A stretch of 53,281 nucleotides of DNA, the filler included, from Streblomastix strix (lineage: Eukaryota), in assembly GCA_008636045.1 (NCBI GenBank). It is 2 parts of 2 records of this genome, joined end to end, with 100 filler letters (N's around TTAATTAATTAA, not from the genome) between each part and the next. Parts side by side here need not be neighbours in the genome. Positions count along the whole stretch, not along the records: positions 1 to 26,600 come from SNRW01000161.1; 1 more part is not named here. The stretch is one strand, 5' to 3'. The notes beneath the pieces were generated by a model that had not been told where the DNA came from, made no database searches, and worked only from the letters and a program-made list of their open reading frames with translations. Below are positions 13,999 to 52,974 of this stretch, in pieces. A program made the translations under genes and the position numbers. Every line of letters starts with the position of its first letter. Position 1 is the stretch's first letter.

Positions 13999-16900
13999 AT
14001 GGCATGTAATTATACTAGATAATAAGTGAATGAAATTGCTGGATTATTTGGGTGTAATTATTCAAGAATTAATTTATAAGCTGGTTAATTCTTAATATAA
14101 GTCTTGTTTTAAGAGTATTGCGTTGAAGAATCATATAATTACTCCCCTTAATTGATTTAGAAAATTATTGATGCAATATAATTAAAGCTTCAATAAGAAT
14201 AATAAAGAAAGTAAAAATTACTTGACGATTTTTATCAATGGGCTAATGAAGTAACTTCATAAGAGATAGAGTAATTCATAAAACCATCAAATGAAAAGGA
14301 AAAGGAAAAAGAAAAGGAAGTTCCAAAATAAATAACTTAGGAAAAAGAAAAAGAGGTTCCTTAGAAAAAAATATAAGAAAAAACTGAAATATAATTAAGA
14401 ATAGAAGAACATAATAGAGAAATTGAGGATTTACCTGCTGAATTTTTTGAAAAATTTACCAAACATGGCATAAGTTAGATGGAAAAAGATTTGCCAAAAG
14501 AATATGATAATCTGTAAGTTGCTGTTAAATAACCAATTGCAAAATAAAAAGTAAAAATAAAATAGTAGCGGTAAAAATAAAATCTAAGATTTGAATTAAA
14601 TATCCAGTTTATAGATCTAGTCTTTCACCATAATTTGTTAAAGAATCATTGAAAAGACTTGGTAAATAATCTGAAGAACTCTCAAATTATGCAGCATTAG
14701 AATTATGGTTGTTATAATTATAAACATTAAATTAATATTATTCTAAACTATCAACTGAAGCTCGAATTATTGGATTTTTAGATTATTCTATTCCGGATTA
14801 ACATTATGAACCAGATCTGAGTTTCTATTAACCATTATCATCAGAAGAAATATCAGATATTCATGATAGAATTGATAATCCACAAAGCAATAGTGAAATT
14901 AAAATATAAAAGGAATAACTTAATGATAAATATAAAAAAATTTACTAAGAATTTAATGATATTCCTGAAGAATAATTACAAACTTTTAAGATGGCTGATA
15001 AAGAAATAATTGCAGAAATATATCATTTTAATGATAAATAACTAAAATAAATAAAAATCGAAAGCTTAATTGACGAATAAGATAAATCACTTTTATTAAC
15101 TGAGCCAGTTAATTTATTGCAATTTTTATAATATTTGAGATCTGCAAGAAGATAACAACAACAGCAATTAAAAGAAATTAAAGGGAAAACTGATTAAGAT
15201 GGAAATGAACCAACACATACATATATAAACAATTAAATAACTTCATTGGAAGATATTCAAAAATTTATTAAAGAAGTTTTTGAAAAAGAAGAAGAAAATC
15301 ATTTTAAAATTGCTGTTGATTTCGACCATATAGAAGAATATTAAGATGTGACTCCTGAATGAGAATAAATATTAGAATATAATTCAAAATTTCCAAGGAA
15401 AAATTTAACTCTGTTGAATATTAAATCGCTTATTACAAGTTAAGAAGATATTGACACTTACGATAAATATATAGGAACAATAATTATCAATAATTAGGAA
15501 CAAACTGAAGAATTTATAAAACATCATTTTATTGCAGTATTCTCAATGATTGTTATAGCATATCGTATTCTATTTGCAGGTAAAGCTATTCCTGAGTTAT
15601 AGAAATTTATTAAACGACGTGAAGTTCATTGTGTTGAATCTCCAAATCCAATTAATTATTTCATTGAAGCATTATCATATTTATCAATGCCTGATTCGGA
15701 AACTAATCGTTACAGATCTTAAAATAGAGTTGCTGAAGGAATTAGATTTATAATTTAACATTACAGTTTATCTGGCAATTCTGCTAAGTGTAGAGATGTT
15801 TAAAATTTTCTTAATGATTTTAAAAGATTTGATTTACCAGCTGATGGTGAGAAAATTGCAAAAAGAATGAATATAAATATCTGTGTCTATGCTTATAAGG
15901 AAGATGAATAATGTAACTCTTTCTACTTAGATCATGTAATAAAAGCATTGAATTATATCTTAGACGAAAATGAAACTCAAGTATAAGAGCAAGATCCATA
16001 AAATTTTAATATACTACTTCTTCAATTTAAAAATCAAGCTCATATATTATTTGTTTCTGATCCAGAAACATTAACAGGTTAAAGATATTGTCCAATATGT
16101 AAGATTCATGGTATTATAATAAAAGATAAAAATTGTCATTCAGCAAGAGATTTTGAAAGGCATGTTGATAAATATAAGTTAAATAATGGCAAGCAAGTTC
16201 TTCTATCATCATCTCAAATACCATTTGCTCCACACATTTTTGGAAATTAAACATATATTCATCTATTAGTTAATGAAATGCTCGATAAATTTAAACCAAC
16301 TTAATATTATATTACGTATGATTTTGAGACTGTTGAGCGAAATATTAATAAATACTTTGGTAAAAATAGAGATGAAAAAGATGAAACTGGTTAAAAATTG
16401 AGTAATTCATTTTAAAATTCCATATTTGAACCATTATCAGTTGCAACTACAATTTAATATAAATCTGGAATTAGAACAATCTATTACGATCTTCATTAAG
16501 GACCAAGTTTCATTGAATAATGGTTAGAAGAAGTATTTAAAGCTGCTGAATAAATTAAGTATGATAATATGTATAATGATGATCCTGAAGTTCCATATGA
16601 AATTCCTGTTCCAGTTATTGGTTTAAATTCTTCTCATTTTGATATGATATTTGTATTACCATATCTTATAAATAAAGATTGGCACATAGTTTAAGGTGGA
16701 TATCTTGGTGATTTCTCTCATATTAAGCGCGTAGAAGTTATGCATAAAATAAGTAATGTTAAGATATAATTCTTAGATATTGGTATGTTCATGACTAAAA
16801 TGTCATTAAAAGAAGTTGCTGAATCATTTGGTGCAGGAAATAAATAAGATTTGAAAGGAATATTTACTTACAATGCATTCAAATACGATAATTATAATGA

Positions 16901-19208
16901 AATATTATCAAAATCTGAACCATTTGCATAAACTGATTTCCTAAACTTACTCAAAGAATAAACCTTATCTGATAAAGAGTACAAAATTTATCTCGATGAC
17001 TGCAAAAAATTTAAAACAAGATAGGAATATCTGTAGTATTAGAATGAATAAGATACAAAAATAATGATAAAACCTATTGATAAACTAATTTAAATGAATT
17101 TCAATAATGGCATTGATATGTTTAACTATGTTTCAGTGGCAAGTTGTGCAAATGCTATCAAATATAAGATTGCTTGTGATGATTTCTATTTAAATGCTCG
17201 TTATGAAAACAAATCAGATATTTTTCTTATTAATTATTAGACATTCAATTTAACTGAATAATACTGGGGAATTAAAGTAAAAAATTATAAAAAATATGAT
17301 ATTAAAGCTGGAAGAGATATCAAAAATAACGTGAATTTATCTGATTATGAGTACTTCAAATAATTACTTGAAAATGGATCTTGTTGGTTCTGTTAAGCAA
17401 GATTTACTAAAACTAATCTTCCAACTCTTGATAAAATTAATAATAAACTTGAACATTCGAAAGATAACGTTAGATTAGCATGCTTATATTGTAATATAGC
17501 TAGAGCTAATAGAGTTGATAAAATATCTCGATTAAAGATATAACTTAAAAGATATTATTTAGCAAAATAATTTCCAATGCCAATTACTAATGAGGAAACA
17601 TATCATGAATTAAGAAATGGAATTAATGGTGGATTCGCTTATGCTTTTCATAGATATAATATTTCAGGAATTACACATATTAATAAACTAAAGCTAGAAG
17701 ACTCAACGTTTGACGACGAAGGTAGGCATGGTAAGGTAATCAGTTATGATTTAGAACATATTATGACTCACATTATAGGATTTGATTTCAATTCTTTTTA
17801 TCCATTTGTCTACAGTGAACATTAACATGAATTAATTAGAAATACAGGTCATTAGATATATACCCCTAGGTATGAATTACTTAGAATTAATTGTGTAACT
17901 GAAAAAAAAGAATTGGGATTAAATATTATAGATAACCAATTAAGATTCTCTTTATAAAAATCTGATATTGATAAAGTAACAATGTTCGTAGCATCTGTTA
18001 AAGGTCATATCAATGAAGAATATCTTAAGGATTTTATTAATTGTCCTCCAATAATTTGGAAGTACAAATATAAATGCTTGGAATTCGTGATTGGTAAACT
18101 GATGTATGAGCATTAATTGAAAAATAATTTTCTAAAAGATAGAAATGAATGCAAATTAACAGTTTTATTATCAAAAATGGGTGAATATATGGATTTTTAT
18201 TCATAATGCTTATGGTTTTTTATTGATGATTGTCATTTCATAATTGATGATATCAAAAATATTAAGACATTCTTAAAACATATAGGATTTGCACCATTTG
18301 TTAAGCATTTCAGTAAATAAAGTCTCTCAGCAAAATTATCAAAAAATGCTGGATTAGATTAATACAGCAAAATAATTATGAATTCATCTTATCGTTCTGA
18401 TGGTATGAATTAAGAATATTTTACGGATGTTAAGATATGTTATAGAGATGATACATTTAGAGTTCATTTATATGACAAATTTAAATTTGATCGTAAGTTA
18501 GGCGATAATAACTATGCTGTAGAATATGAAAAATAGAAATTTTGTTGTAAGACTAGCTTATAAGTTGCATTTGCTGTATTAGATTGTTCCAAATATTGGT
18601 TTATGAGCATTTATAACAATTTCCTTTGCAAATGTATTGATTAATAACGTTTTAATGTTGTTTACTGTGATACTGATTCAATGATGTGTGCTGTTTCAGA
18701 TGATTCGAATTAAGATTATCGATAAGGATTCTCTGCAATAATTATTGATTAAAAATTTTATGATGAAAACTTCTATAAATTTTTTCCAGATCCTAATAAA
18801 GATATCTATAATGAAAAGAAATTACTTGGAGTTGCATATGAACATTGTGGTTCAAGTATGATTGCATTAGCACCAAAGAATTATTGGTTAGATTAGCCGT
18901 TTGATAAGAAAGAACCTGAAGTAATTATATTGAAAGGATTAAATTTAAAACTCAATCCACAAATTAATAAAGAAACATATATATAAAATTTCAAAGAAGG
19001 AACTGTCGTATAAGGTAAAAATAAATCTTTAAGAAAATATATAGAACATACTGATAATAATGAAATACTTAGTTGAATGAGTAGAATTGAAACATTTAAG
19101 AATGGTATTACTGGAACTCATACTAAAATGATATGCTTAGCAAATGGTTGTTGTTGTCCATTTATATAAAATCTTACAGCTGAAAATTATAGTATTGAAA
19201 ATCTATGA
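13999..19208 (+). pseudogene. polB: Protein-primed family B DNA polymerase (Polinton-type) with long N-terminal region, Zn finger and internal HNH; disrupted
   Basis: ExoI YITYDFET (~16310), ExoII GLNSSHFD (~16620), GINGG, motif A GFDFNSFYP (~17780), motif B KIIMNSSYRSDG (~18370), motif C YCDTDS (18663). Frameshift near 14560-14590; in-frame TGA at 14592, 15360 and 19074. Confidence 0.9.
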
Positions 19209-19253: not shown

Positions 19254-20672
19254 ATGTTTGACAACTGCGATGATTTTGGTGTTCCACGTAAAGGTGGTTA
19301 TTACTTAAGAAAATCATAAAAAAGAACCGAATAAGAAATTCTATAAGAATTTTTAAGTAGATATTCTGATAATTCTGATGAAAATCGAAGATAAAATGAA
19401 GTTGATAAATTAAAATTTATTGAAGATATGGCAGATCTAATGAACCTAGGAATTAAAGAGATACTTGATAAAAATAAATCATTAAATTTTGAATATTTCT
19501 TAGAAAAATTAAATTTACATGAATAGTATGAAGAATTACCAGTTATGAATAAATTTACAAATTTTATTAAAATTGGAGGTAAATCATTAACTAATTGGTA
19601 TAATGAATATATTGATATATTAGTTGCTAGGGGATAAAGAAGAAAACATATTAGAGAAGATATGAATGAAGGTAGAAGATAATTGAGATAAATTGTGGAA
19701 TTTCAATTCAAATCAAAGCAAAAATTAATTGAAAGAGCAAATCAAATTAAATTGCGACCATAAAATGATATCGATGAAAGAATAAATGTTCCTGATTATC
19801 ATATCAAATAATTACGGAAGAAATTTGGAAGATCTAACTTATCACAATACACTGATTCTTTTGAAATTGATTTAGTATTCTCGATGAATCCACTAATAAA
19901 ACACGTTAGTTAAATTTATTTATTCTGCATTAATATCTATACCAAATATCTTGTTGTATATCCTATTCGTGAAAAAACAGCAGAAGAAATTCACAATGCA
20001 TTAATGATTATAACAATTAATTTCAAAGTAAATTATATCAGAGGTGATGGAGAAAGAGGATTCACAGCAGCTAAGTTAATATAATTTTATAAGAATAATT
20101 AAAATTCTTTAATACACAGTTTCTTCATTGATAATGCAGCTGCTCCATTTACAAATCATAATAGAGTAGTAGATTCAGTGATAAGAACTATAAGAAATGC
20201 ATTCGGATTAAATGAAAGAGCATTTTTAAACAATAATTTAATGCAATTAATGGTTGAAATTTATAATAAAACTCCTCACAGCGTATTTAATAACTACTTT
20301 ACTGCAGATTAAGTGAAATAAAATGAAGATCTTGAAGAAATATTCATCAGAAAACATAATAAATAGTTACATGAATAAAAGAAAGTATAAGTACTTGAAG
20401 GATTACATAACTTTTAGCCTTTAAATATTTTAATGATTTATGTTGATTATTCTCGTACAGAACATTCATTTGCAAAATAAAGAAGAAATTTCAATGAATT
20501 GGCTGAATTTGTTAGTTATGATCATGGAAATGTTTGTTGTAAACCATTAAAGCTAATTAAAAAATTATATAGGATTGAAATTCCAATATATTACTGCAAA
20601 TATGTATGCAAAAATATTGAAGAATTATTTTCATCCAAATTTAAATATTATCGATAAGTATTCTTTATTTGA
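19254..20672 (+). CDS. Retroviral-like (rve / c-integrase) integrase, 472 aa, open frame
   Basis: FEIDLVF...YLFCINIYTKYLVVYPIREKTAEEI...IRGDGERGF...HNRVVDSVIRTIRN...YNKTPHS, the rve core pattern; ATG 19254 to TGA 20670. Confidence 0.85.
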
Positions 20673-20741: not shown

Positions 20742-21086
20742 ATGCAAAAAGAAGAAATTTAAGAATTAATTATTTAAACTTTGGATGATTTATAGGCGAT
20801 ATCAATTAAAAAAGATAAAGATAAAGATAATGTCAAAGTTGATTCTCGAGGAAGAAAACATAAATATTAATCTGAAGAAGAAGCAAGAGAAAATCAAAAA
20901 TAATAGAGCAAAATAAGTGCTGCAAAGGCATCATTAAATATAAATATCTTAACATTGGACACAGATAAAGCAAATTTATTGAGAGATTCTTATAAATTAT
21001 GTCTGTAAAAAGTTAGAAAATATCATCAAAACTGGATTTAGGAGAGATTTCATCAAGAATTTTGCGTGCTGTATCATCTGGATTGA
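20742..21086 (+). CDS. Small basic protein (114 aa), possibly DNA-binding
   Basis: Open frame containing DSRGRKHKYQSEEEARENQKQQSK, an RGR motif followed by a charged helix. Confidence 0.55.
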
Positions 21087-21153
21087 TGTCAGTTTTATCT
21101 AAGGTTTGAACTAACAGTAATCAATTTATTTTTATTGAAAACACCGAATTAAA

Positions 21154-22479
21154 ATGTCTGACGGGGACTTACATATGTTAGATGTTGTCTTGAAACATGA
21201 TAAAACATTGTTTGGTTCAAATCGTACAAATACTATTGGAATTGTGGAATAAATCACAAACATCAATAATTAAATCAATAATATATCTTATGGGCCTGCT
21301 GGTGATACTTATTCAAGACCTTAGATTGATGAATTATTTGATGGCGAAGCTGACAAAACTGATCTTGATGAATATTACACTAAATCTGAATTTTATACTA
21401 AGGTTGAAGTCTATAATAATACAAAAGTTGATGAATTTCTTGATGAAAAAGCTAATGTAGGTACTTCATATTCAAAATCAGAAGATGATGCATTATTATT
21501 ATTGAAAGTAGATAAAACTGATTTTGATGAATATTATACAGCTGGATAGGTTGATGAAATGCTTGATGAAAAAGTTGACAAAACGTAATTGATTGATTCA
21601 TATTCAAAATCTGATGATGATGCATTATTATTATTGAAAGCTGACAAAACTGAGTTAATTGATTCATATTCTAAATCAGAGGATGATGCATTATTGTTGT
21701 TGAAGGCTGATAAAACATAATTGATAGATTCTTACTCTAAATCTGAAGATGATGCACTATTATTAGCAAAAGCTGGCAAAAACAGACTTTGAAAACTTTG
21801 TAGATCTGTACACAGCATAAACTATAACAGGATAAAAATAATTTGGAATAATTAGTGTATCTAGCATATCAAAACTTATTAAAAATGATGCATCAATATA
21901 TTACTTGCAAGTGGTGGTGATATATTAGTAATCTCTTTGGTTACATAACAATAATTATAAAAAGTCAGAGATATTGCATCAGAAAGATCAAAAGGTCATG
22001 TATTCGATAAATTATATGATATGAATGATTGGATGGCAGTTCCTGATAATGTTGCAACTTTGGTTATTGGAGATAATTTATATATAATTGATTCATCAGT
22101 TATGGATTATTGGTGGGATGGAACTTAACTTAGAGAATTAGAAACTTAACTTCCAGATTTAACTAATGTTGTCACAACACTTGGTGAAGCTACTGGAAGT
22201 GGAAATGCAATAACTGATCTAAATATAACTGGAAATATATTGACTCCAGCCAAAAATAAAAATTTCGTTGATTTAGAATACAATCAAACAATAAAATGTA
22301 TGTTTCTGCAAGTATGTCAACAATATATGTTAATATTACCATTTCAGTATGAGCTAATAAACTGGAATTAACAATATATGGCTGGAGGATTGCGCCATAA
22401 GGTTGATATCACTGATCCAATGAAAACGATAATTAAATATTATTTTTGTTTGATTCCAAATAATGACAGTATTTATTGA
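21154..22479 (+). pseudogene. Tail-fibre-like structural protein with 22-aa repeats; frameshifts near 21780 and 21900
   Basis: Repeats DSYSKSEDDALLLLKADKTQLI, then FVDLYTAQTITGQKQF, LLASGGD, GDNLYIIDSSVMDYWWDG, GSGNAITDL and FVDLEYNQTI. These motifs recall phage fibre shafts. Confidence 0.6.
21466..21780 (+). repeat. 66-bp coding tandem repeat (3 adjacent copies plus 1 upstream copy)
   Basis: GATTC starts at 21595, 21661 and 21727 (period 66); a related copy starts at 21466. Confidence 0.85.
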
Positions 22480-24093
22480 CGAAAAATTACTTGAAACTGC
22501 TGGATTAACTGATTTTCCAGAGTTATATGCTTATTTTAAAGAACTGGAACCAAAATCAAGTGAAGAATAACCATAATCTGTACCAATAGTTGAATAAACA
22601 TTATAAGATTAAGTTAAATAGAATGCTGCAATAATTAATGATGAAGAAAATGAATTTGTACTTCTACCAATTGAAAATATATAACCAAAAGTTGATTTAT
22701 AAGATGGACTTGAGAAAACAGAAGGTTGTACATGGTTGGTAAATTAATCAATGAAATAATTGAGTGTTTCAAAATAGAAAATTACTTACAATTTCTCAAT
22801 AAAAACAAAAAATATTTTCATAGATACATATTTGAAAATTGGCCTGAATATGCATAACTAAGATTGGAAGATAAGATTATTATAATAGTTGGATCAGATT
22901 CATTATAGGAGAATAATATATTCGGATATATTGATTAAAATGATCTTTATATTTCATTAGATGGAGATGAAGATATATAATCTGATATTACAATTATTTT
23001 ATCAGGTATTTATTATACAAAATATACACCAATTAAACAAGCACCATATGATAGCAGCAATGATAATAAATTGGACATTTAAGATTCATGGAATGAAATT
23101 GCTAAAGGAGGAGAATATAAGACATAAACTTGAGTATATGATACTGTAAAGCGTTAATCAAATATACTTGAATAAATATCATTAGGACCTGAATCTGCAA
23201 AATATAATTGACTAAGTAATTATTTATTAATTGATCCAGTTTCAATATATAGTTTTGATAGAGCAATGTTTTATTTGGTTGATGGACCACAGATAACATT
23301 TAATTTTAAATCTAATGTTAGTGATAATGCATTAAATTACTGTAAAGTTTTTCAAAAGTTCAATACTAGATTGCTGACATAAAAAACTAAATATTTTACT
23401 GCACATCTTTGTTAATAAGAATTTTATGCTCATATGGATGTGAAACCTAACGGATATGCCGATATATTTAATTAAAATAAGATGGAAGTGAAATTTAATG
23501 GATAGCCTGGTAATAGGGATGTAGAATTTGCTGGTACATATATTAATGATACTTATGTAAATCCTGATTCAACAGATTTTGAAGCAGCTAATAAAGCTTC
23601 GTCAAGAATAGATGAAGTGATAGCATAACAAGATAGTAAAGTAAAAATAGCACCATTATTTACTGATTACGCAATAACTGATTTCATAAATTAAGTATAA
23701 TTTGCTGATGATTTTAGAAACGGATAGATTGAAATAATTAATGAGGGTTATGTACCACCAACAATAATTAAAGACTGTACATTGTATCGAGTAAATGATA
23801 GAGTGAACAATTTAATTGTATTCAATTTTTATATTGAATAGTTTAATAATAATAACATAAGTCCAAATTTAATGCTTTATTGGTTACCTGATGAAATTGT
23901 TCCATTAACTAATAAATATTTCCCTTCATCATGCTATATAACTGTTCCAGCTTAATCATATTTTTATAAAAGATCATCAAGTTATGCAATGATAGATTCT
24001 GGTGATAAAGGGCTATATATTCATCTAAGTGATCCAGTATAGGATGTATAACGTGGTAAAGTTTATTATATTAGTGGAAGTTATTACATTTGA
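22463..24093 (+). pseudogene. Beta-rich putative virion / receptor-binding protein; frameshift near 22750-22780 and in-frame TGA near 23130
   Basis: Long TAR=Gln frame with recurring module endings ILSGIYY, FAGTYI and YISGSYYI-stop, suggesting repeated beta-sandwich units. Confidence 0.45.
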
Positions 24094-24174
24094 ACTCATT
24101 TCATTCGCAATCTAAAGAGATAAGTTTATAGTAATTTATTTTTGTTAAACCGAAACAAAAATACAACTAAAAAG

Positions 24175-24498
24175 ATAGCCATCGGAATCTTTCATAAAAT
24201 AAAATAATTAGCATCAAAAGTTGGCAAAGGATTACAATAGGTAAATGATAAAGTTGTTAAACCTGTAGTTCTTCCAGCAATGAAGTAATTTAGTGGTATA
24301 ATTCCTGTTGGAGGATTGATTAGAAAAGGAATAGAAACTGGTTCATCTGCACTTGATGCATTCTATGGATAAGGTTCATAATAAAACTTCAAAAAAAATA
24401 TAATGATTTACTAGAAGATACATACTTAAGAAATTTATCAATTGATTAACTAAGTCGATTAATAAAACTTAGAGGCAATTAATGAAACTTAAAAATGA
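24175..24498 (+). CDS. Small protein with N-terminal cationic amphipathic helix (candidate membrane-penetration protein); ATG absent, ATA at the expected start
   Basis: IAIGIFHKIKQLASKVGKGLQQVNDKVVKPVVLPAMKQFSGIIPVGGLIRKGIETGSSALDAFYG, immediately upstream of the putative MCP. Confidence 0.45.
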
Positions 24499-24556: not shown

Positions 24557-26269
24557 ATGATTCGTTTTCTAGCTAAAGCAATCTAAGTTCAAGGATTAAT
24601 TACAATTGAGTCATATCTTGAATCAAATGCAGTGTCTCCTTTCAAAAATGATGGAGAACATCACTATTCATTTAAGGAAATTAAACCAGAATCATAGATG
24701 TCAGCATTATTTGATAAAGAAATTATAGTAAGTTTATCTGACAGTGATCATGATATTACTCAGATATAGAATTCATTCTTATCAATTGTATTGACTGCAA
24801 ATCAATAGTTCGATAATAAGTTCGAATATTTTTATAATGCATATAAGAATGGAGTAGTTTTATTTGTAAGTTTGAAGTCAGAAAGTAATATAATTCGTGA
24901 ATATACTGTTTATCATCGAGGAAGAACTATTGATGGAAGCTTATTGAATGATGCAACAACTGAATCATTTATTTATAATACTATCAAGCCAAAGTCAGAG
25001 AAAAATAATAGAAAATATATTCATTCATTGTATGAAAATATCCATAAATTCGATACATCAGCATGTAGAATTTAAATAACAATGAGAGAAATTGAAGAAG
25101 CAACTGGAACATAAACAAATATACCATATTTGATGCCAGTTAGATTCAGAATTCCAGTTCTTTTTGATGATATACTTATATTCTCAGCATTTACAGATTA
25201 TCCTAATGGAATGTTTGCAGATCTTAAGATTAAATTCAAAATAAATTCAAATGCATTCGTATTTGCTTAAGTTAATCCAACAAAATCTTTAGTAAAATAT
25301 TATACAATGAATAAAGATGAGCTGTTGAGTTCAGAATAATAAAAATTGATAGATATTGATATCTTCTTCCGTAATTTGAGCTTAGCATTCTAATATACGA
25401 AATAATTTACATAACTTTGATGTACAGCAGATTTAATAACAAGTATCAAACCTGAAGAATTAACTTAAAGTGGCTAGAAAAATTTAATATGCGATATTAA
25501 TCCAGTAATAATTTCAATAAAAAATTACGTAATAACTGAAGTTACAGCAAATATTGCTGGATATAAAGCAAACGATACATGTTTGGCAAGAGTTAGAGAC
25601 TTCTTTACAACTAGAGCATTTGTAGTTCCTGCTTAGAGTGTTGAAATATGGCCATTCCCAACTTCTGCAACACATACAAGAATAAGAACTTCTTAAAATA
25701 TTCCATTATCTCATGTTACAGATATTGTATTATTATTCCCTAAAGATGCAAGATGTACTACATGCTTTGAAAATCTATGTTATTAAAATATGTAGTTGAC
25801 AACTTGTTGAAGAAATTTCCCAGATATACCAATGAATACTACTGATTAATAATTCTTCCATTTATAATAGAATGCTAGTACCTTAGATCAATTATTTGAA
25901 GCGAATGATGAATTTGAAGATGCATTAACTACTCCTAGAAATACTGCAACTAGAAGACCTAATCCTCATATAGATTTAACCTCATTCATGATTTCATTGT
26001 AATGCGAGAGAAATAGTAATGGAACTCTAATTTTAGATGGACTTGATGCAATGAATCAAAAAAGTTCTGTTGAATTAAGAGGTGCACAAATTTATCAAGG
26101 AATTACTGATAGTTATTATAACGTGGATACAAATGGAAAATGACCTCCTCCACCAATTCTATGTACAGTTCCTGATACATTCTGGTTACTTAGTCTTAAT
26201 CAAGGTGGTTCAGCCCATTATGATACAACACATTCATTTGATGAAGTTGTAGAAGAAATTGGAGTGTGA
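24557..26269 (+). pseudogene. Putative double jelly-roll major capsid protein (~570 codons) with three in-frame TGA stops
   Basis: Beta-strand motifs DITQIQNSFLSIVL, IIREYTVYHRGRTI and FRIPVLF...FTDYPNGMFADLKIKFKIN occur in the order expected for a DJR N-terminal roll. Size and position fit. TGA at 25418, 25808 and 26141. Confidence 0.55.
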
Positions 26270-26324: not shown

Positions 26325-26600
26325 ATGTAAGTTGCAGAAAATAAAAAGCATTTCATTATATCTGCAGATCTTACATAAAATGAATAGCATTCATTCCAAA
26401 GAAGATTACCTGTAGATTTCGTAAATTCATAGAATGAAAGAAAAATATTGTTTGTTTAATTTACAATTCCATGGAAAGTTAAGAAATGTTTCTATGATTT
26501 GAATTAATAAGAAGATCATGAAACAACTCCTATTTAATATATGAAGATATCATTTCATTCAACATTAGTTTAAGAAGAATAATATAATGAATAATATGTT
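26325..26600 (+). CDS. Putative minor capsid (penton-like) protein, N-terminal part only, cut by the gap
   Basis: MQVAENKKHFIISADLTQNEQHSFQRRLPVDFVNSQNERKILFVQFTIPW resembles the F-x-I-S...F-x3-LP...V-x-F-x-IP start of Polinton/PLV pentons; it follows the putative MCP. Confidence 0.4.
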
Positions 26601-26700
26601 NNNNNNNNNNNNNNNNNNNNNNNNNNNNNNNNNNNNNNNNNNNNTTAATTAATTAANNNNNNNNNNNNNNNNNNNNNNNNNNNNNNNNNNNNNNNNNNNN
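26601..26700. other. Assembly gap / contig spacer: 44 N + TTAATTAATTAA + 44 N
   Basis: Symmetric N runs around a linker that has standard-code stops in all six frames; artificial. Confidence 0.95.
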
Positions 26701-29700
26701 ACAGAAGAAGTGAATCAAGAGAACGATCAAGATCAAGAGTTTTTTCAAGATCTAAAGACTACTAAGATCCGATAGAAACTAGAATGGATGTTGATAGGAA
26801 TTAAAATGGATTTGAAACTAGAAACGAACCAAGAGGCAGAGCACGAGGAGCATATAGATGAAAGGAATATAGTTATTAAGGAAGGGGATAGAACTATTAA
26901 GACAGAGATCAATCGAATTAGGAAAGATATAGAGAAGCATAGAAGTATAACCCATATACAAAATAGATCTTCAGTCAGACTAAGAATCCAATAAACTGAA
27001 ACAGGAAGCACTAATATGATAATAGGAATTGATGAAAAGGCTTGGTCGAAAATCCAAATGACGTGCGGATAAAACGCACACAGGTGCAGAAAGATACACT
27101 TGAACACCATAGTGACAAAGACTCAACCTGGACAGAAGATGTAACCGTTAACACTTGGTAGCAACAGCACAACCCAAATAGCTTGTTCAACAAACACAAC
27201 GAATATAATAGGTACAAGTAATACCAAAATAATAGACCCTAGTTCAAATACCAAGATAAAGAAAGGGAGAAAAGACTAACCACCGAATCAAGATGACATT
27301 GACGAATAAGAAATAAAACAAGAAAGACTAGCTACCTTATAGAGAGAGAAGGAACAATACAATATATCTGATTCGGACAATGAGTTGCAACAAATAATTG
27401 AAGAAATAGATAATAACAATTTAGCACCCAAGTAAGCACAGAAATAATTATAGGAGATGATTTAACAATCAATCTTTAAATAAACAGCATAATTATAAAT
27501 ATATCAATAGATTGCTAATATTTAAGCTTAATAAAAGATAAATTTATCAACATAAAGGATGATTAGCACTAGAATGAACAAAGACAAACCTAGTAGCTAA
27601 ATACAAAGACCTGAAATACCAACTTAGGAAACTATTCATAGAGGAAGAGATAAATAAAGATAATAAAAAATGGAGAGAGAAGTATAAATGATACATGCAA
27701 GTTTACAGCTTTATCAATAATGATACAATACTCTCAACAACAAAAATGTTGATTTATACTGATATACAGGGAACTGTTGGATAGCTAACTGGTTTGTAGC
27801 CGAGTTCTGGTGCCCAGAACCCAGGCTTAAATGCAGGGCTGAAGCCAATTGAAGCGAGGTCAATATCGGCCAGTAATAGTAAAAGAACGGAATCTTAAAT
27901 GAATGAAGGTCATGACGATAATGCTGAAGATAAAGAAGACGAGTAAACCGTTAAAGCAACACTAATCCAAAACAAAGACTGTAGAGTTAATATAATCTCA
28001 TAGCCCCCAGTTTAGGAGAATCTGAGTTTATAATTATAAAATATTCAAGGCTTTAATGCTTTGAGTTAGATAAATAAAGATAATCGAGGCCCTGCACCAG
28101 TTGGAGTACAGGAGAAACCTAAGAAAGGGAAAGGTAGTAAATCAAAAATTTTAACAAAAAGCCTAATTGCCGTTAACGAACCAAGCTAGGGCAGCAATGC
28201 CCAAACTTCAACTTGAATAGCTTCCACAGTTCCAAAACCTAATGTTGCGCCAAAATGAAGTAGGTAAATAGCCGAATAAGTTAAACCCGAGTCAAAAAAT
28301 TCAAACGGTGAGGATAAATGGGAGTAGAGTCCCTTTTCTGACAAGTACACTCCAACCATGGGAGATCAACGTTAAAATCTCCCTATGGAACATAGAAGAC
28401 GAGGGCGCTTGTGAGGACAGCATTTCAGGAGATGGAGGAAAGGATTGGAGAATTGAAATATAAAGAAAAGGAGAATGGAACGGGAGGAAAAATTAAAGGA
28501 TTTTATATGCATGGAAACAGATAGGGAAAGAAGATTTCATAAACTCTGGATTTTTTCTGAGATTTAAAGATTAAACCAGTTAATAGAGATTAAAGGAAAA
28601 AGAAATGATAGTCCCATTTATTGGAACGAAAAAAGAGAAGGAAGCTTTCCAAGATATGTTGAAAGAAGAATTGGAAGAAGGAATAGTAATACCAATTTAA
28701 TAGGATCAAGTGAAATGGTGGAACCATACATTCCTGATAAACAAACTCAATAGGACATGGAGAAAAATTCTGGATGCTAGTAAGTTGAATAAGGAAATAG
28801 AGAATTTACACTTCAAGATGCTTGGACTAGGGGAAGTACAATACTTAGCAAACTAAATGGATTATGTAACATCCATCGACCTCAAATCAGCATTTCACCA
28901 CATCACAATATCTCCATACTCAATACCATACCTAGCATTTAATTTTAATAATAATAATTTCGCTTATAAAGCAGTGCCTTTTGGGACTAAAGACAGTCCA
29001 ATCTTCTTCGCAGAAGCAATAGAATCAATCCTTAGATAAATAAGAATACATTCAGAAATTAAAATTATGAACTACTGCGACGATATACTTCTAATCCATC
29101 AGGATAAACAAATTCTTAAAACACAAACAATAGAAATAATGAAAACACTGGAACAGTTCGGATGGACAATTTCAAAAGATAAATGCGAAATAGATTAGAA
29201 ATTGATAATAGCATTTATGGGATCGATAAAGAACCTGAAGGAAATTAATATATGAATGTCGGAATAAAGAAAGCTGAAAACGATACATGCATTGAAAGAG
29301 TTGTGTAACGCAATATATGTTAATATATACATAAAGATATGAAAACTAGTAGCGCTGATAGGTAAACTGAACTTCCATAGACTCCGGATAAGAGAAGCGT
29401 CTCTATATCTAGGAGAATTGGACAAGGCGAAGACGCAAACGTTAAAGACAAAATCTTAGGACGAAACGATGATAGTGAACAGGGGAATAATCAGAGAATT
29501 GAAATTGTGCATAAAGAGAATAGGGGATAACCAACCAAAGTCAGTGATTAATAAAATATTATCATGTATGATAACAACAGACTCATCACCACAGGGCTGG
29601 GGAGCGACACTGATATACGATAATCAAATAGAATTTATATAACATGACTTCTGGAGCGAAAATGAAGAAGAAATGACAAGTAACGCTAAAAAAATAAAAT

Positions 29701-29955
29701 ATATCTATTACAGGCTACTCCGTTTCGAGCAAGTCATCAAGATGAAGCAAGATCAGGCAATCTTGATACGTTCAGATAATACAACAGCAGTTTACGATAT
29801 TGGGAAATGGAAAGCGAAGGAATCCCTGAGAGGCAGAATAAAGCAAGTATTTTACCTAGTGAAAAGAATTTAACTACAAATTATAACAATCTATATCCCA
29901 GGAATATTGAACTCAACATCGGACTCACTCTCGAGACTGAGCAAATATGGGGGCT
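26701..29955 (+). mobile_element. Degenerate, truncated DIRS-like retrotransposon (gag-like low-complexity region plus RT-RNase H)
   Basis: Purine-rich upstream frames interrupted by TGA, then RT/RNH. No tyrosine recombinase or methyltransferase ORF seen downstream. Confidence 0.75.
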
Positions 29956-30002
29956 ATAATGTCCGCATTGCGATCTTCTTTTAAAATAGATGTAATGATT
30001 GA
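28482..30002 (+). pseudogene. DIRS1-type reverse transcriptase-RNase H
   Basis: GGKIK...WKQIG, WRKILDASKLN, SIDLKSAFHHI, VPFGTKDSPIFF, NYCDDILL, TTDSSPQGWGA, IRSDNTTAV and IPGILNSTSDSLSR. In-frame TGA near 29253 and 29340; the RNH Glu position reads K (SNAKKI). Confidence 0.85.
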
Positions 30003-30147: not shown

Positions 30148-32055
30148 ATGATGGATAATCTTTGTAAACACGCAAATATATTATAATATAATAATAATCA
30201 AGATGAATATATGACCGAAAATGGAGAACTTAAGCTCGAAAATAATTTTTAAAATCTCGGCGCTGCCCATCTTAACATTGTAAATATTTCATCAAATCAT
30301 AATTAGTAATAAGATAAATAATTAGATAACAACAAAATTTCATAAAATTTAGATAATTTTACAGGTGAAATTCCCGATAGTTAAATTTTACTTTAATAAA
30401 TCAATTCACCACTTGAAATGCATGATAATATTAATAAAATTTGTACAATTAAATTGCAATCATCTTATTTAAACGATTAAATTTCATCAATATAAAATTC
30501 AACATCATAAACATAAAATATTAATAGTATTTTGAAAATTCTCCAATAAATATCTAATGAAAAAGTTTAAGATTTAAAATTATTATTGGCAAAATAACTT
30601 CATAAACATATAATTGATCTAGAAGATGACTAATTTGAAGTTGAGATTAATAAGGAAGTTTTCAATGAACTTAAATAATAGATTGGGTATATAACTAATG
30701 AAGTTTAATATGAGATTTTAACAATAACTGAAACAATTGCAAAAAGAGGTACTGAAGCTGATCTTGGATTAGATGAGAATAAATTTGTTGCTCATTTTCA
30801 ACAATCAGGGTTATCAAAAGCAATTGAAGATCTTTTTCTTCTCTAAATTTAATTATTGTAGAAAGGCAATTAAAAGCTTTGCAATTACTCTGAGATATTT
30901 CTTTCTCTGTTACAAACATTTGCGTTAATAAACCAAAATATCCAATTAGACAATAAATTATTAGACACAATATAATAGTTTTTCAGTGCATATTTATCCA
31001 ATCTAACAAACAATCTTGAAGCTTCATTTAAAGATATAAATACAAATGGTCAAATAATAAAAACATTAAATACTGAGATTGAGAAATAAATGATTGAAGG
31101 ATCTAGAATAATCAAAGCATTATAAGGAATCGCTTATTAAGAGAATAACAAATCAACATTTGTGAATGTATTCAAGATTCACATAATTCTCTCACGTTTG
31201 TTTCATATTCAATGTCCATAAGAACTGTAATGCCCAATGAACCTCAAAATTCCCAAGTCAAAAGCCATGTTTGAGCTCAAAGCAGCTGTTTTTAAGACAT
31301 TTGCTGAATTGATGAGAAGAGATGAAAGCTAATACATATAATAGAATTATTAAACATTGAAGCATATCGCTCCACTTATTATCTAATTCTCTAAAAATCA
31401 GTTAATTCAATAAGCATAAATTAGATAAATAAACTATTCATCATTTCAGTCCAATTAATCATTTTGCAATATGTCTTTGTCTATAACTACTTATTCTGTC
31501 TACTTGTTGGATTCGCTTCTATTTGAAAACATGAAACAATGCGAAGAGTCAGTAAACACCCCAGGACCAGTAAATGCACTTATTTAATTGACCAAATATG
31601 GGAAAAGAAGAACGGAAAATAAAATAAACAAATACGATGCAATGTATATAAGATAGTTAAGCAATGACTGCCTTGCCTGTATCAGACACTTTGGTGGGGA
31701 ATAAATGTGGAATCTTCTTATAATATAATATGGATTTATTTAAGCTTAAATTGAATGTGTGAGTATTTGTGGAGGATGTGAGGATGAATATATAATAGCG
31801 AATTAGATGAGACTGATGAATATCAAATACGCATTTGATGATCTGAGAAATGATATGGAAGATAAACAGATTAAATCTGATCTGGAGAAAGTTGAGGAAG
31901 AAATAATTGAAGAAGAAGGAGGATTGGAAGAAATCGATTCAAACAAGTTACATACCCAGCAATTAAAGGAAGACGGAATTTATTATTGGGCCAATTAAGC
32001 CATGGATTCTGTTTTAAATACTAAGAAAGATATCACGAACGAGGAAGATGAATGA
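30148..32055 (+). CDS. Hypothetical helical protein (~635 aa, intronless) with a C-terminal domain shared with the genes at 44101 and 52291
   Basis: Single TAR=Gln frame, ATG 30148 to TGA 32053. C-terminal part reads CLACIRHFGGEQ...SICGGCEDE...EEEIIEEEGGLEEIDS...WANQA. Confidence 0.7.
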
Positions 32056-35700: not shown

Positions 35701-38700
35701 ATTCTTCTGATTCAAACTTAAGCTATATATTGTTCCATTCAATATTCTTTTCTTTTAATGTTGGATTATTATACCACCAAGTGAAAAGTTATTAGAAATC
35801 TTAATTAATTTAAAAGAGAGTTTAATTCAATGTGTTGTATGCAACATTATATACATGTTAATAATTGATATTAATTTAATCCTGCATTAATAATAATAAA
35901 ATAATTAAATAAATATTAAATTTCAATAAAAATATCAATAATATAAAATTAAATTTTTAAATATAATTCCTATATCATACATCATTATCAATGAGCAATA
36001 CATAGAACATATGATAAGTTAATACATCAAGTGCTTGACATATACTCTCGGCTATTTAAATAGCACGAATTCCTCCATGAGTTTAGTTAATTGAATCAGA
36101 GAAGCGATTAATTGTGAATATGTAAGCAAAAATGATTAGTGCCATGAATACGAATAATGATAAGTAGAGCAAAGAAACAATAATTTGCATTGATTTATCT
36201 GTGAGTTGCTTATCATCAATTGTACTTACATTCATTGTACTTTTTGGATCTCTATTAGAAGCATCCTTATATTACTGAAGGTATTGTTCAACCATTCCTC
36301 CATTCCCTTTAAACTTCTTTCTCACTAATGATGCCAGGAAATCATTTTATAACGTTTTTTATTCGTCCTGATTTCTGTAACTCTCTTAATTTCTTGGCGA
36401 TTGATCTTTTTGTTTGTCAAATGTTAGTTTATTACGTCGTATTCGCTCAGACAGTGCTAACACCTGCTCTTCAATGCGATCAGCCTCAGAAAACAGACAT
36501 TCAGATGCTTATGTATCATTGTATAGGTCTTTCACAAGCACAGATACGTGTCTCAGTATTGATGGGTTGTTTGGATGGTCATCAAGGAGCTTGAAATATG
36601 CTTCCAATGCTTTTAGGGTTTTGTCTGCTGCTCGCTCGAAATTGAACATTATTCGATCGACATCTACATTTCTTCTCATGATTAGTTGGACTGTCTGGAG
36701 TAAGTAAGCTTTTGCCAGTTCATAATTGGTTTATCCAAATTGCAGTCTTACTTGCATTGAATGTGCACTTTTGTGTTGAAATTAATATTTAATATAAATA
36801 TTATAATTAAAAAAAAATAATAATTAAAAAATAATTTAACTCTATTCAATTCAATTTTAGTAATAAAATTATTATATTTTCATACTTTTCAACTTATGAC
36901 GAAATACTTAATGCACCAAAACCAACTTTGACTTGGTTTTATTAATTCATATCTTCCTCCTCAATGTCCTTAAATACAATAAATAAATTATTAATATATA
37001 ATATAATATTTTAAATTAATAAAGAAAATAAAATAAAATTCATTCAATAATAACATCAATTCATATTTAATTACACACCCTCATCATTCTGAATATTATC
37101 CATCTGTTCGTCCATCCAGGAAACATCTGAGTCGCCCTTCGGAGCAAACTGATCACTTTATCTCGACTAGGTTTGAACTTCTGCATAAAAAGAGCTGCAG
37201 TTACATTCATTTCAGCTGAATATTCAAATTCGTTATCTTTCAGTGCTTTCAGCAAGACAGCTAAAGTGAAAGATCTAATCCTTGCATTCACTGATATCTC
37301 TTCCAACTGCATGTACCGCATCCCCTTTTCAAGCTCAGAAGGTGTTTTGAAGTCTTTAAACACTGAATGAACAACAGATGGTGTTGCAAGAAGAGGTGAA
37401 AGTGACCATTAAATGTTTGGATGCGAAATTCGGACAACACCAGATGGAAGGCGGTTATATAAAACTGGTTGGCTTTCTTTAATTGCAGAATTTCTGGGTG
37501 TTGAATTTTTAGACTGATTTCTTGGAGTTGATACTTTTGATTGAATTTTTGGTTGATTCACTTTTGGCTTTATTCCATTGGTAATGTTTTGTTTTTATTA
37601 TTCAATGGTTAATTAATTTTCTTTTTATTTAGGTTGAGATTAGCCTGATTTAGAAATTAAAGCTTAATTAGAATCAGATTTTACTATTATTTATTATTTA
37701 GGTTAAGATTATAATGTTGGAGATAATAATCTTTATTTGGATATTGATTTAACTATTACTTATTAATTAGGTTGAGATTATATTATTGGAGATAATAATC
37801 CTTATTTGGATATTGATTTAACTATTATTTATTAATTGGGCTAAGATTATATTGTTTGTGATAATAATCCTTATTTGGATATTGATTTAACTATAACTTA
37901 TTATTTAGGTTGAGATTATATTATTGGAGATAATAATCCTTATTTGGATATTGATTTAACTATTACTTATTAATTGGGCTAAGATTATATTGTTTGTGAT
38001 AATAATCCTTATTTGGATATTGATTTAACTATAACTTATTATTTAGGTTCAGATTATAATATTGGAGATAATAATCCTTATTTGGATATTGATTTAACTA
38101 TTACTTATTAATTAGGTTGAGATTATGATATTGGAGATAATAATCCTTATTTAGAAGTTGATCTTACTATTACTTATTAATTAGGCTAAGGTTATAATGT
38201 TGGAGATAATAATGCTTTTTTTGAAACTGATTTAACAATTCTTATTGGTTGTTGCTTTGGTTGAATTGCAACAGATTTGACTTTCTCAACATTTGAAGGT
38301 TATTTAATTAAAATTATATTCTGTAATTTGTTTTGTTTCAATGAATTGGGATTAAAACCATCATCAATTGTATTGTTAAATGATTTTAATGCAGGTGGCT
38401 CAATTGAATAAATTATTGATTAATTAATTTATTTCTTTATTAATAGGGCTCCAACAATAAATGGTCTTAATTTCACTATATTACAATTTCTTTCTTCTAT
38501 TAATGTTTTCTTTCGTAATTATTAATATGTTTTATATCTTTCAAGTTTATTAGGAGATTCCTGAATTAAAAATTAATTGATGTTTGAATTGATTGATTTT
38601 GCATTATTGTTTGATTATTAATAATCTTTTGTTTCAGATTCATTATTTGTTTAATTGATTTGATTTTTTGCATTTAAATTAATTTAAGGTTTCTATTAAT

Positions 38701-44100: not shown

Positions 44101-44847
44101 TCTATATATACTACAAATTAATAATTGGATTAATAAGATTAATAAATTTAAGATCTTACAACAGATTTAATTTCATTAGCATAATAATATGAACTAAATA
44201 AGAAATAAAATTTGAACGAATAAAACCATTAATAATAATCTAATTCTTCCATTTCTCTATCAAAAGTTTTTTCTTCTATTGATATCCTAATAAATCAAAT
44301 CAAGAATTATTGTAAAAAAATAATATAAATTCCAAATCTTCTTCAATCTCTCGCTATACTTATTAGTTATAAACGCAAATTGAGCATCAACAAAGAAGAA
44401 GATTAATAGTGCCTTCTGCTTAGAGGTATATATAGAAATTGTCTTTCGTTGATTCATTGTTATGGTGATGAATCAGACCAATATGAACTTGTGGGTATCA
44501 GATATTCTAGAGTGGTGGCCATTTCCATTAGTACTGCAGGTGGATCTGGTGAAGAATAAGATCATGAGATCTGGAATGGGCTGATTTGCATCGCCAATTT
44601 CCTCAGTTAACTTCGTCAAGGAAGAAATTATCACCCATTTTATCCATCCTTCCCACCACAACCAGAACTTGCTTATGGATCAGAAGAGTAATTTGAGGAA
44701 GAAGGAGGAAATGAAGAAGTTGAATCATAATTATTTAATAAAGGATAGAATGGTAGAATAATGGATGAAGCAACCAGGACTATAGGATGGAAATTGAGCT
44801 ACTTTATTGACAGTAGCAACAATAGACCATTTTGGTATTATTTGTGA
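44101..44847 (+). CDS. Member of the uncharacterised multicopy family (paralog of 52291-52974); start codon not located
   Basis: IPNLLQSLAILISYK...CLSLIHCYGDESDQYELV...SISTAGGSGEEQDHEIWNGL...PSFPPQP...SEEQFEEEGGNEEVESQLFNKG; TGA at 44845. Confidence 0.7.
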
Positions 44848-52290: not shown

Positions 52291-52974
52291 ATGCAACCAG
52301 AATAAGAATTCTATGAAACAGCAAGAGCCATAGTTTCCTTCACTGATTCATACACATAAAACAAACAAAAAATAGAAAAAGAATAGTCAGATTCTGAGTG
52401 CACAACTTCTCTTACTGCAATTGTTTCTAGTCTAGAATCCCTTTCATATAAAATCCAAAATAATGATTCCTGTAAATCAATGATTCAGATTCCAAAGCTT
52501 CTACAATCACTCTTTGCAATTTCATTATACAAAATCGGTACTCACATTGATGTAGATCGGCAGAGATTGGAAGTCAGAAGTTGGAGTAGATGGTGTCTTA
52601 GTTGGATTCAATAGTTTGGAGATGAATAAGTCCAAACAGAGCTTGTTAGATAAGGATATGGAAGAGTGATGTCTATTTCATTCTGCACAGCTGGAGGCAA
52701 AGGTGAAGAACAAGATAAGGAGATCTGGAATGTATTGCGTAGCATATTCTGGTCCCTCAGAGATCTATATATAGGGAGAAATGATTGGTAACCATCCTTC
52801 CAACCACTTCCATTACTTGGTCGAAGATCTGAAGAGCAAATAGAAGAAGAAGGAGCAAATGAAGAAATGGAAGCTTAAATGATAAATAATGGATTAGGTC
52901 GTGGTATCGATAATTGGGCAAACAAAGCGAAAGAAGTGATACAAAACCACTTCATTCACAAGCGTAAAATATGA
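52291..52974 (+). CDS. Member of the uncharacterised multicopy family (227 aa, intronless)
   Basis: MQPEQEFYETARAIVSF...IPKLLQSLFAISLYK...WCLSWIQQFGDEQVQTELV...SFCTAGGKGEEQDKEIWN...PSFQPLP...SEEQIEEEGANEEMEAQMINNG...WANKAK; ATG 52291 to TGA 52972. Confidence 0.8.

What the first reader, a model, noticed from the sequence alone, without database searches (positions are those of the whole stretch)
21154..24093. Bacteriophage-style fibre genes inside a eukaryotic Polinton-like element
ORF 21154-22479 has YSKSEDDALLLLKADK coiled repeats plus QTITGQKQF and GDNLYI...DYWWDG motifs, which I associate with phage tail-fibre shafts. ORF 22463-24093 looks like repeated beta-sandwich heads. Inference: virion attachment fibres, possibly acquired from gut phages and recoded to TAR=Gln, implying an extracellular particle stage.
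Basis: partly seen in the sequence, partly recalled or inferred. Interest (0 to 1): 0.72.

Follow-up and report, generated by a model that had tools for sequence, protein, structure and literature searches.

The report
Broken protist-virus fibres with phage parts
These are two broken genes of a virus integrated in the genome of a termite-gut protist, predicted to build the particle's attachment fibres; the first shares a sequence module with bacteriophage tail fibres, a kind of sharing already reported for such viruses.

Summary
The window is Streblomastix strix DNA (TAA/TAG = Gln). The two genes lie between the integrase-like gene and the major capsid gene of an endogenous Polinton-like virus. 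The quoted motifs are real, but neither gene is an open frame. Fibre 1 (21154-22406) has two frameshifts, a stop and a ~1.4 kb deletion; fibre 2 (22463-24093) has a frameshift and two stops. Intact relatives support the fibre reading. The fibre 1 shaft folds as an in-register homotrimer (0.72, best control 0.00). Its 70-residue GDNLYI/DYWWDG module is up to 54% identical to a module of tailed-phage fibre genes (1,706 clusters). At least seven divergent tip heads sit on a conserved shaft. Fibre 2 is predicted as three heads; two match the receptor-binding fold of lactococcal phages (Z 9-10), which virophages and adenoviruses also use, so only the shaft modules point to phages. No donor, receptor or particle is shown, and 'recoding' only reflects long residence. 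Phage-like fibres in Polinton-like viruses are published, and this scan noted a similar fibre in another genome. Verdict: new variant of a known kind, modest interest.

The parts
15546..19076 (+). Family B DNA polymerase of the element (main open frame; upstream part from about 14650 is interrupted by stops)
   Evidence: PHROG 1907 DNA polymerase E 2e-10; frames
19254..20672 (+). Likely retroviral-type integrase
   Evidence: 472-aa ORF; no Pfam or PHROG integrase hit; label from recalled acidic motifs and position
21154..22406 (+). Fibre 1 pseudogene (intact relatives about 900-1,150 aa)
21154..21770 (+). Fibre 1 N-terminal segment and first block of 22-aa YxKxExD shaft repeats
   Evidence: PHROG 5004 E 1.4e-5; relative models as in-register trimer
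21776..21895 (+). Module B (QTITGxKxF ... LLAGGG), in a shifted frame; a paralogous copy in relatives matches gut-phage proteins
21955..22164 (+). Module A (GDNLYI-x6-DYWWDG, 70 aa), shared with tailed-phage fibre genes
22291..22295 (+). Junction of an internal deletion (467 codons of P0003 absent: second repeat block and most of the head)
   Evidence: tblastn of P0003 and P0011; sequence
22293..22406 (+). Last 37 codons of the tip head (head type 4), with a stop at 22350
   Evidence: 75% and 68% identity to P0011 and P0064
22463..24093 (+). Fibre 2 pseudogene: conserved N-terminal segment and three predicted heads (about 22676-23022, 23194-23547, 23659-24090)
   Evidence: 82% to P0184; model; folds; heads 2 and 3 alike by hhalign
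24166..24480 (+). Small basic, amphipathic-looking frame before the capsid gene; candidate membrane-lytic core protein
   Evidence: translation; function recalled by analogy, untested
24569..26220 (+). Major capsid protein gene with three in-frame TGA
   Evidence: by eye the same family as KAA6394011.1, which Bellas et al. Table S3 matched to the Sputnik capsid protein
26601..26700 (.). Assembly gap that cuts off the element; a reverse-transcriptase retroelement follows
   Evidence: N runs; Pfam RVT_1 E 1.5e-20 at 28197-29252

Best explanation
21154-24093 holds two broken genes of an endogenous Streblomastix Polinton-like virus that, in intact relatives, are predicted to encode the particle's attachment fibres, with shaft modules likely borrowed from tailed phages. 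Fibre 1 is predicted to be a long parallel homotrimer: a conserved N-terminal segment (inferred capsid anchor), two blocks of variable-number 22-residue repeats separated by phage-derived modules, and one exchangeable ~110-125-residue tip head. Fibre 2 is predicted to be a shorter spike of three receptor-binding-fold heads behind its own conserved N-terminal segment. The heads would bind surface glycans or proteins, most likely of the protist host, before uptake (inferred). Shown: homologies, architecture, head diversity, breaks. Predicted: trimer, folds. Inferred: virion location, receptor binding, direction of transfer, a past or present particle stage. This copy cannot make either fibre as the sequence stands.
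For: All 120 listed relatives of each gene are S. strix proteins. The genes sit just upstream of the capsid gene. Trimer of P0012 185-510: score 0.72, best of 3 controls 0.00; runs agree in at least 88% of contacts; pLDDT at least 72; residue-to-same-residue contacts; the mark was reached by 21 of 30 solved homo-pairs and 0 of 23 single chains. Module A occurs in 24 viral contigs. Of 19 contigs examined, 18 carry tailed-phage structural genes, and in 14 the module-bearing protein itself hits a PHROG tail family. A profile of 57 phage and prokaryote modules scores the window at 87.6 bits and 92 of 121 S. strix sequences at 40 bits or more; reversed controls reach 1.8. Module B matches a gut-phage protein at 54-57 bits, no reversed hits. 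PHROG 5004 in 15 of 15 relatives and tail-fibre PHROG 10305 in 7 of 15. Fibre 2 model pLDDT 73, pTM 0.74; heads match bIL170 head Z 10.2 (rmsd 2.9, 106 aligned), PSA gp15 Z 9.7, TP901-1 RBP Z 9.6 (rmsd 2.6, 99 aligned); the whole protein matches a phage minor tail protein, E 6e-7. At least 7 head types among 34 heads, 22% mean identity between types, while module A stays up to 93% identical across types.
Against: No particle, transcript or binding data. The fibre 1 head model is weak (pLDDT about 55-79; best Z 6.3, tied with an unrelated adaptor domain at 6.1). The trimer job held three copies, outside the tool's two-copy calibration; it did not use the alignment, may pass by likeness to solved fibres, and module A (residues 323-414) is not among the confident contacts. 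Fibre 2 has no sequence match to phage families or solved structures, and its fold is matched as well by the virophage protein Zav_19 (Z 9.7). The module A tree is a quick, unrooted tree of 70 columns with no resolved sister. Relatives are gene models from a fragmented assembly, so some shaft-head combinations could be chimeric.
Confidence: 0.82

Rival explanations
1. The fibres bind bacteria, not the protist: phage-type heads attach particles to the Bacteroidales ectosymbionts or other gut bacteria, which carry the virus to a new host cell.
For: Heads have the fold of saccharide-binding phage RBPs. S. strix carries Bacteroidales ectosymbionts (PMC12483993, passage). In vitro precedent in virophage DSLV2 (PMC12724248, abstract and discussion). 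Module A occurs in 8 Bacteroidota genomes among 54 loci.
Against: No binding test. The phage-like sequence lies in the shaft, not in the heads. The same head fold binds eukaryotic receptors in adenoviruses and reoviruses (established knowledge).
Confidence: 0.15
2. They are virion fibres or capsid decoration inherited within the double-jelly-roll viruses; the phage likeness reflects an old shared pool of fibre modules, not a transfer from gut phages into this lineage.
For: Fibre-head fold in Zamilon and Noumeavirus capsids (bioRxiv 10.1101/2023.01.23.525297, abstract and one section). Phage-tail repeats and BppL_N are widespread in Polinton-like viruses (PMC12220804, passages). Only the top 150 of 1,706 clusters were seen.
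Against: Module A keeps 49-59% identity over 70 residues to phage copies, too high for a very old split. Among the top 150 clusters only one is of the S. strix type. This rival probably holds for the heads but not for module A.
Confidence: 0.2
3. The element now spreads only inside the genome or is extinct; the fibre genes are decaying leftovers with no present particle stage.
For: In this copy both fibre genes, the capsid gene and the polymerase region are interrupted; one break is confirmed in a separate assembly; many relatives are truncated or fused.
Against: Full-length open relatives exist (11 fibre 1 proteins with N-terminus, module A and head; P0184 and others for fibre 2), with conserved shafts and divergent heads. 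This rival is true of this copy and open for the family.
Confidence: 0.3
4. The stretch is a contaminating bacteriophage or prophage fragment from the gut community joined to protist DNA.
For: Phage-like modules; the source is a single-cell metagenome.
Against: The frames read only with TAA and TAG as Gln. Neighbours are a Polinton-type polymerase and a double-jelly-roll capsid gene. Host genes flank the element (coatomer epsilon, poly(A) polymerase). No baseplate, portal or terminase hit.
Confidence: 0.01

Closest known systems
Bacteriophage-like fibre proteins of Polinton-like viruses (Bulzu et al. 2025, PMC12220804; passages read)
   Same: Long modular proteins with phage-tail repeats and BppL_N-like motifs, inferred trimers for host attachment; Trichomonas elements carry phage-tail-repeat proteins.
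   Different: No S74 chaperone or collagen Pfam hit in 17 relatives; an unnamed phage module at 50-59% identity; a panel of exchangeable heads; a second three-head protein. S. strix is not mentioned in that paper's main text.
Ltf of Gezel-14T / PgVV (bioRxiv 10.1101/2022.07.28.501842; passages read)
   Same: Phage-fibre-like repeat protein of a Polinton-like virus, found in purified particles.
   Different: Ltf has T4 gp36-like repeats; here the repeats are YxKxExD-type and no particle has been seen.
DSLV2 virophage tail proteins (PMC12724248; abstract and discussion read)
   Same: Adjacent fibre genes beside capsid genes, related to phage tail proteins.
   Different: Three genes forming a T4 gp37-like heterotrimer; here two genes, a predicted homotrimer and RBP-type heads.
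Fibre-head / RBP fold: lactococcal bIL170, p2 and TP901-1 RBPs, Listeria PSA gp15, Zamilon Zav_19, Noumeavirus NMV_189, adenovirus knob, reovirus sigma1
   Same: Fibre 2 heads 1 and 3 match at Z 8-10.
   Different: Those have one terminal head per chain; fibre 2 is predicted to stack three. Identity is 9-15%, so no lineage can be assigned.
Metamonada-group endogenous viruses of S. strix (Bellas et al. 2023, PMC10120064; passages and supplement search)
   Same: Same capsid family and same use of the host code.
   Different: The word 'fiber' does not occur in its main text or held supplements (one file was cut when stored).

Membership tests
Maverick-Polinton / Polinton-like virus (Metamonada group) | Double-jelly-roll major capsid protein | tested here: met
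   24569-26220 matches by eye the S. strix protein that Bellas Table S3 assigns to the Sputnik capsid fold; not folded here
Maverick-Polinton / Polinton-like virus (Metamonada group) | Family B DNA polymerase | tested here: met
   PHROG 1907, E 2e-10
Maverick-Polinton / Polinton-like virus (Metamonada group) | Integrase | tested here: inconclusive
   No profile hit for 19254-20672; motifs recalled
Maverick-Polinton / Polinton-like virus (Metamonada group) | Packaging ATPase, penton, terminal inverted repeats | tested here: inconclusive
   No Walker A in the element and no long inverted repeat, but the element is cut by a gap at 26601; penton candidate not tested
Trimeric viral fibre | Parallel homotrimeric shaft | tested here: met
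   Predicted only: 0.72 against 0.00, in-register contacts, for fibre 1 relative P0012; fibre 2 trimer not tested
Trimeric viral fibre | Distal receptor-binding-fold head | tested here: met
   Fibre 2 heads 1 and 3, Z 9.0-10.2; fibre 1 head only Z 6.3 on a weak model
Trimeric viral fibre | Present on particles and binds a receptor | not testable with these tools
   No particles or binding data
Caudoviricetes tail fibre (strict sense) | Sequence homology to tail-fibre modules | tested here: met
   Module A, module B, repeats
Caudoviricetes tail fibre (strict sense) | N-terminal baseplate-attachment domain within a tail gene cluster | tested here: not met
   No such PHROG hit at the N-terminus or among neighbours; phage proteins with module A have it. 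It works like a tail fibre but is not one.
Pfam-defined fibre domains of Polinton-like viruses | PF12789 PTR, PF13884 S74 chaperone, PF01391 collagen | tested here: not met
   No hit at E 0.1 in 17 relatives or the window pieces
Pfam-defined fibre domains of Polinton-like viruses | PF18338 BppL_N | tested here: inconclusive
   4 of 17 relatives hit, 1 above the curated cut-off, over 12-17 residues

The most novel reading that the evidence does not exclude
The many endogenous copies in S. strix form a library of interchangeable fibre tips on a phage-derived shaft, and at least some tips bind the Bacteroidales ectosymbionts that coat the protist, so that this eukaryotic virus reaches new host cells by riding on bacteria in the termite gut.
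Probability: 0.12. Interest if true: 0.78.

Novelty: new variant of a known kind. Interest (0 to 1): 0.4.

Why it matters
Whether Maverick-Polintons of gut metamonads still make infectious particles is open. A conserved-shaft, variable-head fibre pair is what an attachment organ under receptor-driven selection looks like, and the ~115-residue heads can be expressed and tested for binding without culturing the protist. The case also gives sequence-level, not only fold-level, evidence of module exchange between tailed phages and a eukaryotic virus, and it exposes an unnamed phage fibre module with about 1,700 clusters and no Pfam or PDB entry. The general idea is already in print and this copy is dead, which limits the interest.

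Tried and rejected
Table 11 gives only 4 ORFs of 100 aa or more; table 6 was used. No whole genome is held, so copies were studied through database proteins. tblastn of module A against cultured phages found nothing, from the window or from a phage contig. PDB sequence searches gave nothing credible for fibre 1, fibre 2 or module A. A viral-contig scan with full-length fibre 1 found no relative. The capsid protein found no relative in viral contigs and one metagenome record without fibre genes. A scan with the fibre 2 alignment could not run. The ESM Atlas gave only Preaxostyla clusters and one weak lead at 0.80. The monomer model of fibre 1 left the shaft unfolded (mean pLDDT 42), so its Foldseek hits were not used. 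hhalign found no link between fibre 1 heads and fibre 2 heads, nor between fibre 2 head 1 and heads 2 or 3; one reversed control reached 22%. No RNA holder was listed. No listed contig covered the fibre 1 breaks at 99% likeness. The careful tree did not finish and test_one_clade was not run. One collection scan for module B was not run, so its spread among phages rests. The S. strix genome paper is not held. Literature searches: 'Streblomastix + Polinton' 1 paper, 'Streblomastix + capsid' 3, 'DYWWDG' 0, a five-term search on hypervariable Polinton fibres 0; subscription journals and bioRxiv supplements were not searchable.

Full report
Setting. Under table 11 the window has 4 ORFs of 100 aa or more; under table 6 it has long host-type and virus-type frames. 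All 120 listed homologues of each gene in question are Streblomastix strix proteins (120 of 286; 120 of 182). Around them lie a family B polymerase (PHROG 1907, E 2e-10), a likely integrase (label recalled, no profile hit) and a major capsid gene that by eye matches the S. strix protein assigned to the Sputnik capsid fold in Table S3 of Bellas et al. (PMC10120064). That paper reports that S. strix endogenous viruses use the host code (passage). The element is cut by an assembly gap at 26601-26700 and followed by a retroelement.

Observation. The quoted motifs are present, but the two 'ORFs' are pseudogenes. Gene 1 has two frameshifts around QTITGQKQF, lacks residues 462-928 of its closest relative P0003, and ends with a 37-codon head remnant that holds a stop; it ends at 22406. 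Gene 2 is 82% identical to the intact 543-aa P0184 but has one frameshift and two TGA. The capsid gene has three TGA. Bellas et al. warn that such breaks are often assembly artefacts (passage). Here a separately assembled 332-base contig matches 22610-22941 exactly and spans the gene 2 frameshift, so at least that break is real. The others are not bridged by a listed contig. A run from a second study holds related copies, mostly 90-95% alike.

Fibre 1 in intact relatives. The order is: conserved N-terminal segment, repeat block 1, module B, module A, a short further module, repeat block 2, more module B-like units, a conserved linker, and a head of about 110-125 residues. In the 11 relatives that have N-terminus, module A and a full head, the two blocks hold 5-12 and 7-19 repeat motifs. 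A pattern cut 35 heads from 121 proteins; at 50% identity they fall into 8 groups, one of which is a frameshifted copy and was dropped, leaving 7 types in 34 heads (12, 10, 5, 3, 2, 1, 1), with 73% mean identity within and 22% between groups. Among 19 proteins with both parts, module A is 80% identical for same-head pairs and 73% for different-head pairs, up to 93% across head types. This fits head exchange on a constant shaft, with the caution that these are gene models from a fragmented assembly. Three copies of P0012 residues 185-510 fold as an in-register trimer: score 0.72, best of 3 controls 0.00, runs agree in at least 88% of contacts, pLDDT at least 72. The mark was reached by 21 of 30 solved homo-pairs and 0 of 23 single chains, but the calibration held two copies and a pass may reflect likeness to solved fibres. 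The repeats and module B-like units make the confident contacts; module A does not appear among them. The monomer model of P0064 folds only the head, whose best matches are fibre heads at a weak Z of 6.3, tied with an unrelated domain.

Phage link. A pattern for GDNLYI-x6-DYWWDG hit 24 viral contigs. The match extends over 80 residues at 35-49% identity to the window (20 of the 25 phage copies aligned). I scanned selected proteins of 19 of the 24 contigs: 18 carry tail, baseplate, head or terminase genes, and in 14 the module-bearing protein hits a PHROG tail family. A profile from 57 phage and prokaryote copies scores the window piece at 87.6 bits; reversed controls reach 1.8; best ungapped identity is 54% for the window and 59% for a relative. 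The module occurs in 1,706 clusters at E 0.001 or better; among the top 150 one is of the S. strix type and nine others looked up are unnamed metagenome proteins. In bacterial genomes it was found at 54 loci, by record title 40 Clostridia-type, 8 Bacteroidota and 6 others; I did not check that these are prophages. This fits gut anaerobes but the collection is rich in them. A quick tree (91 rows, 70 columns) keeps the 34 S. strix rows together (SH-aLRT 99) without a resolved sister: one origin is not ruled out, no donor is named, and direction is inferred from distribution only. Module B matches one gut-phage protein over its full length at 52-57 bits and others in part. The repeats match PHROG 5004 in 15 of 15 and tail-fibre PHROG 10305 in 7 of 15 relatives. 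tblastn hits to cultured phages are weak (37 records at E 1 or better, 13 named tail fibre, none with another function, best E 8e-5).

Fibre 2. The model of P0184 (pLDDT 73, pTM 0.74) shows three beta domains. Domains 1 and 3 match receptor-binding heads: bIL170 Z 10.2 (rmsd 2.9, 106 aligned), Pa223 tail needle 9.9, Zamilon Zav_19 9.7, PSA gp15 9.7, TP901-1 9.6, Noumeavirus NMV_189 8.1, then reovirus sigma1 and adenovirus knobs. Foldseek on PDB gave no hit at E 0.001 but the same kinds of protein below it. Domain 2 is assigned by its strand pattern and an hhalign match to domain 3 (65%, E 6e-5). The best viral-model match covers most of the chain (Microbacterium phage minor tail protein, E 6e-7, TM 0.40). 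Among 7 chosen full-length relatives the N-terminal 60 residues are 57% identical and the domains 33-40%. No sequence-level phage match was found, so a phage origin of this gene is not shown.

Code. TAA/TAG make up 15 of 17 Gln codons in fibre 1, 32 of 36 in fibre 2 and 50 of 58 in the polymerase, against 64-78% in eight host frames. The fibre genes look like the rest of the virus. A standard-code gene needs only a TGA stop to be read in this host (established knowledge), so no special recoding step is implied.

Mechanism and standing. Most likely the intact genes built two trimeric surface appendages, a long one with an exchangeable tip and a short multi-headed one, anchored by their conserved N-termini and binding cell-surface receptors; anchoring, binding and the particle stage are inferred. 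Phage-like fibres in Polinton-like viruses are described (PMC12220804, passages), one is confirmed in particles (bioRxiv 10.1101/2022.07.28.501842, passages), virophage tails related to phage tails bind bacterial LPS (PMC12724248, abstract and discussion), and the head fold is known from virophage capsids (bioRxiv 10.1101/2023.01.23.525297, abstract and one section). I found no description of these S. strix fibres or of module A, within the library's limits. Verdict: a real feature, broken in this copy, a new variant of a known kind; interest 0.4.

Noticed in passing
window 24166-24480 (+): Basic, amphipathic-looking small frame directly before the capsid gene, with a frameshift near 24390; resembles in position and character an adenovirus protein VI-like membrane-lytic protein (recalled, untested).
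   Followed up: no
window about 26325-26600 (+): Frame just after the capsid gene, cut by the assembly gap; candidate penton.
   Followed up: no
window 26845-30002 (+): Retroelement with reverse transcriptase (Pfam RVT_1 E 1.5e-20) and weak RNase H hit; only 44% of its Gln codons are TAA/TAG and its GC is higher, unlike host and virus genes.
   Followed up: partly
L001:7462-7632 and L080-L110: The gut-phage contigs closest in module B (many about 185 kb) give long frames only when TAG is read through, in 11 of 16 loci tested; probably TAG-recoded phages. Coincidence with the host's code is unexplained and may be chance.
   Followed up: partly
L002-L079, P0242-P0391: Module A is a large unnamed phage fibre module (1,706 clusters) with no Pfam or PDB match, mostly in anaerobe-associated sequences.
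   Followed up: partly
window 20900-21106 (+): Remnant of a further conserved viral gene upstream of fibre 1, partly deleted and frameshifted relative to P0020 and P0023.
   Followed up: partly
window 37552-38310: Tandem array of 69-nt units inside a host membrane-protein frame.
   Followed up: no
window 31897-31954, 44683-44740, 52831-52888: Three dispersed copies of a related acidic coding motif, suggesting a host multigene family.
   Followed up: no
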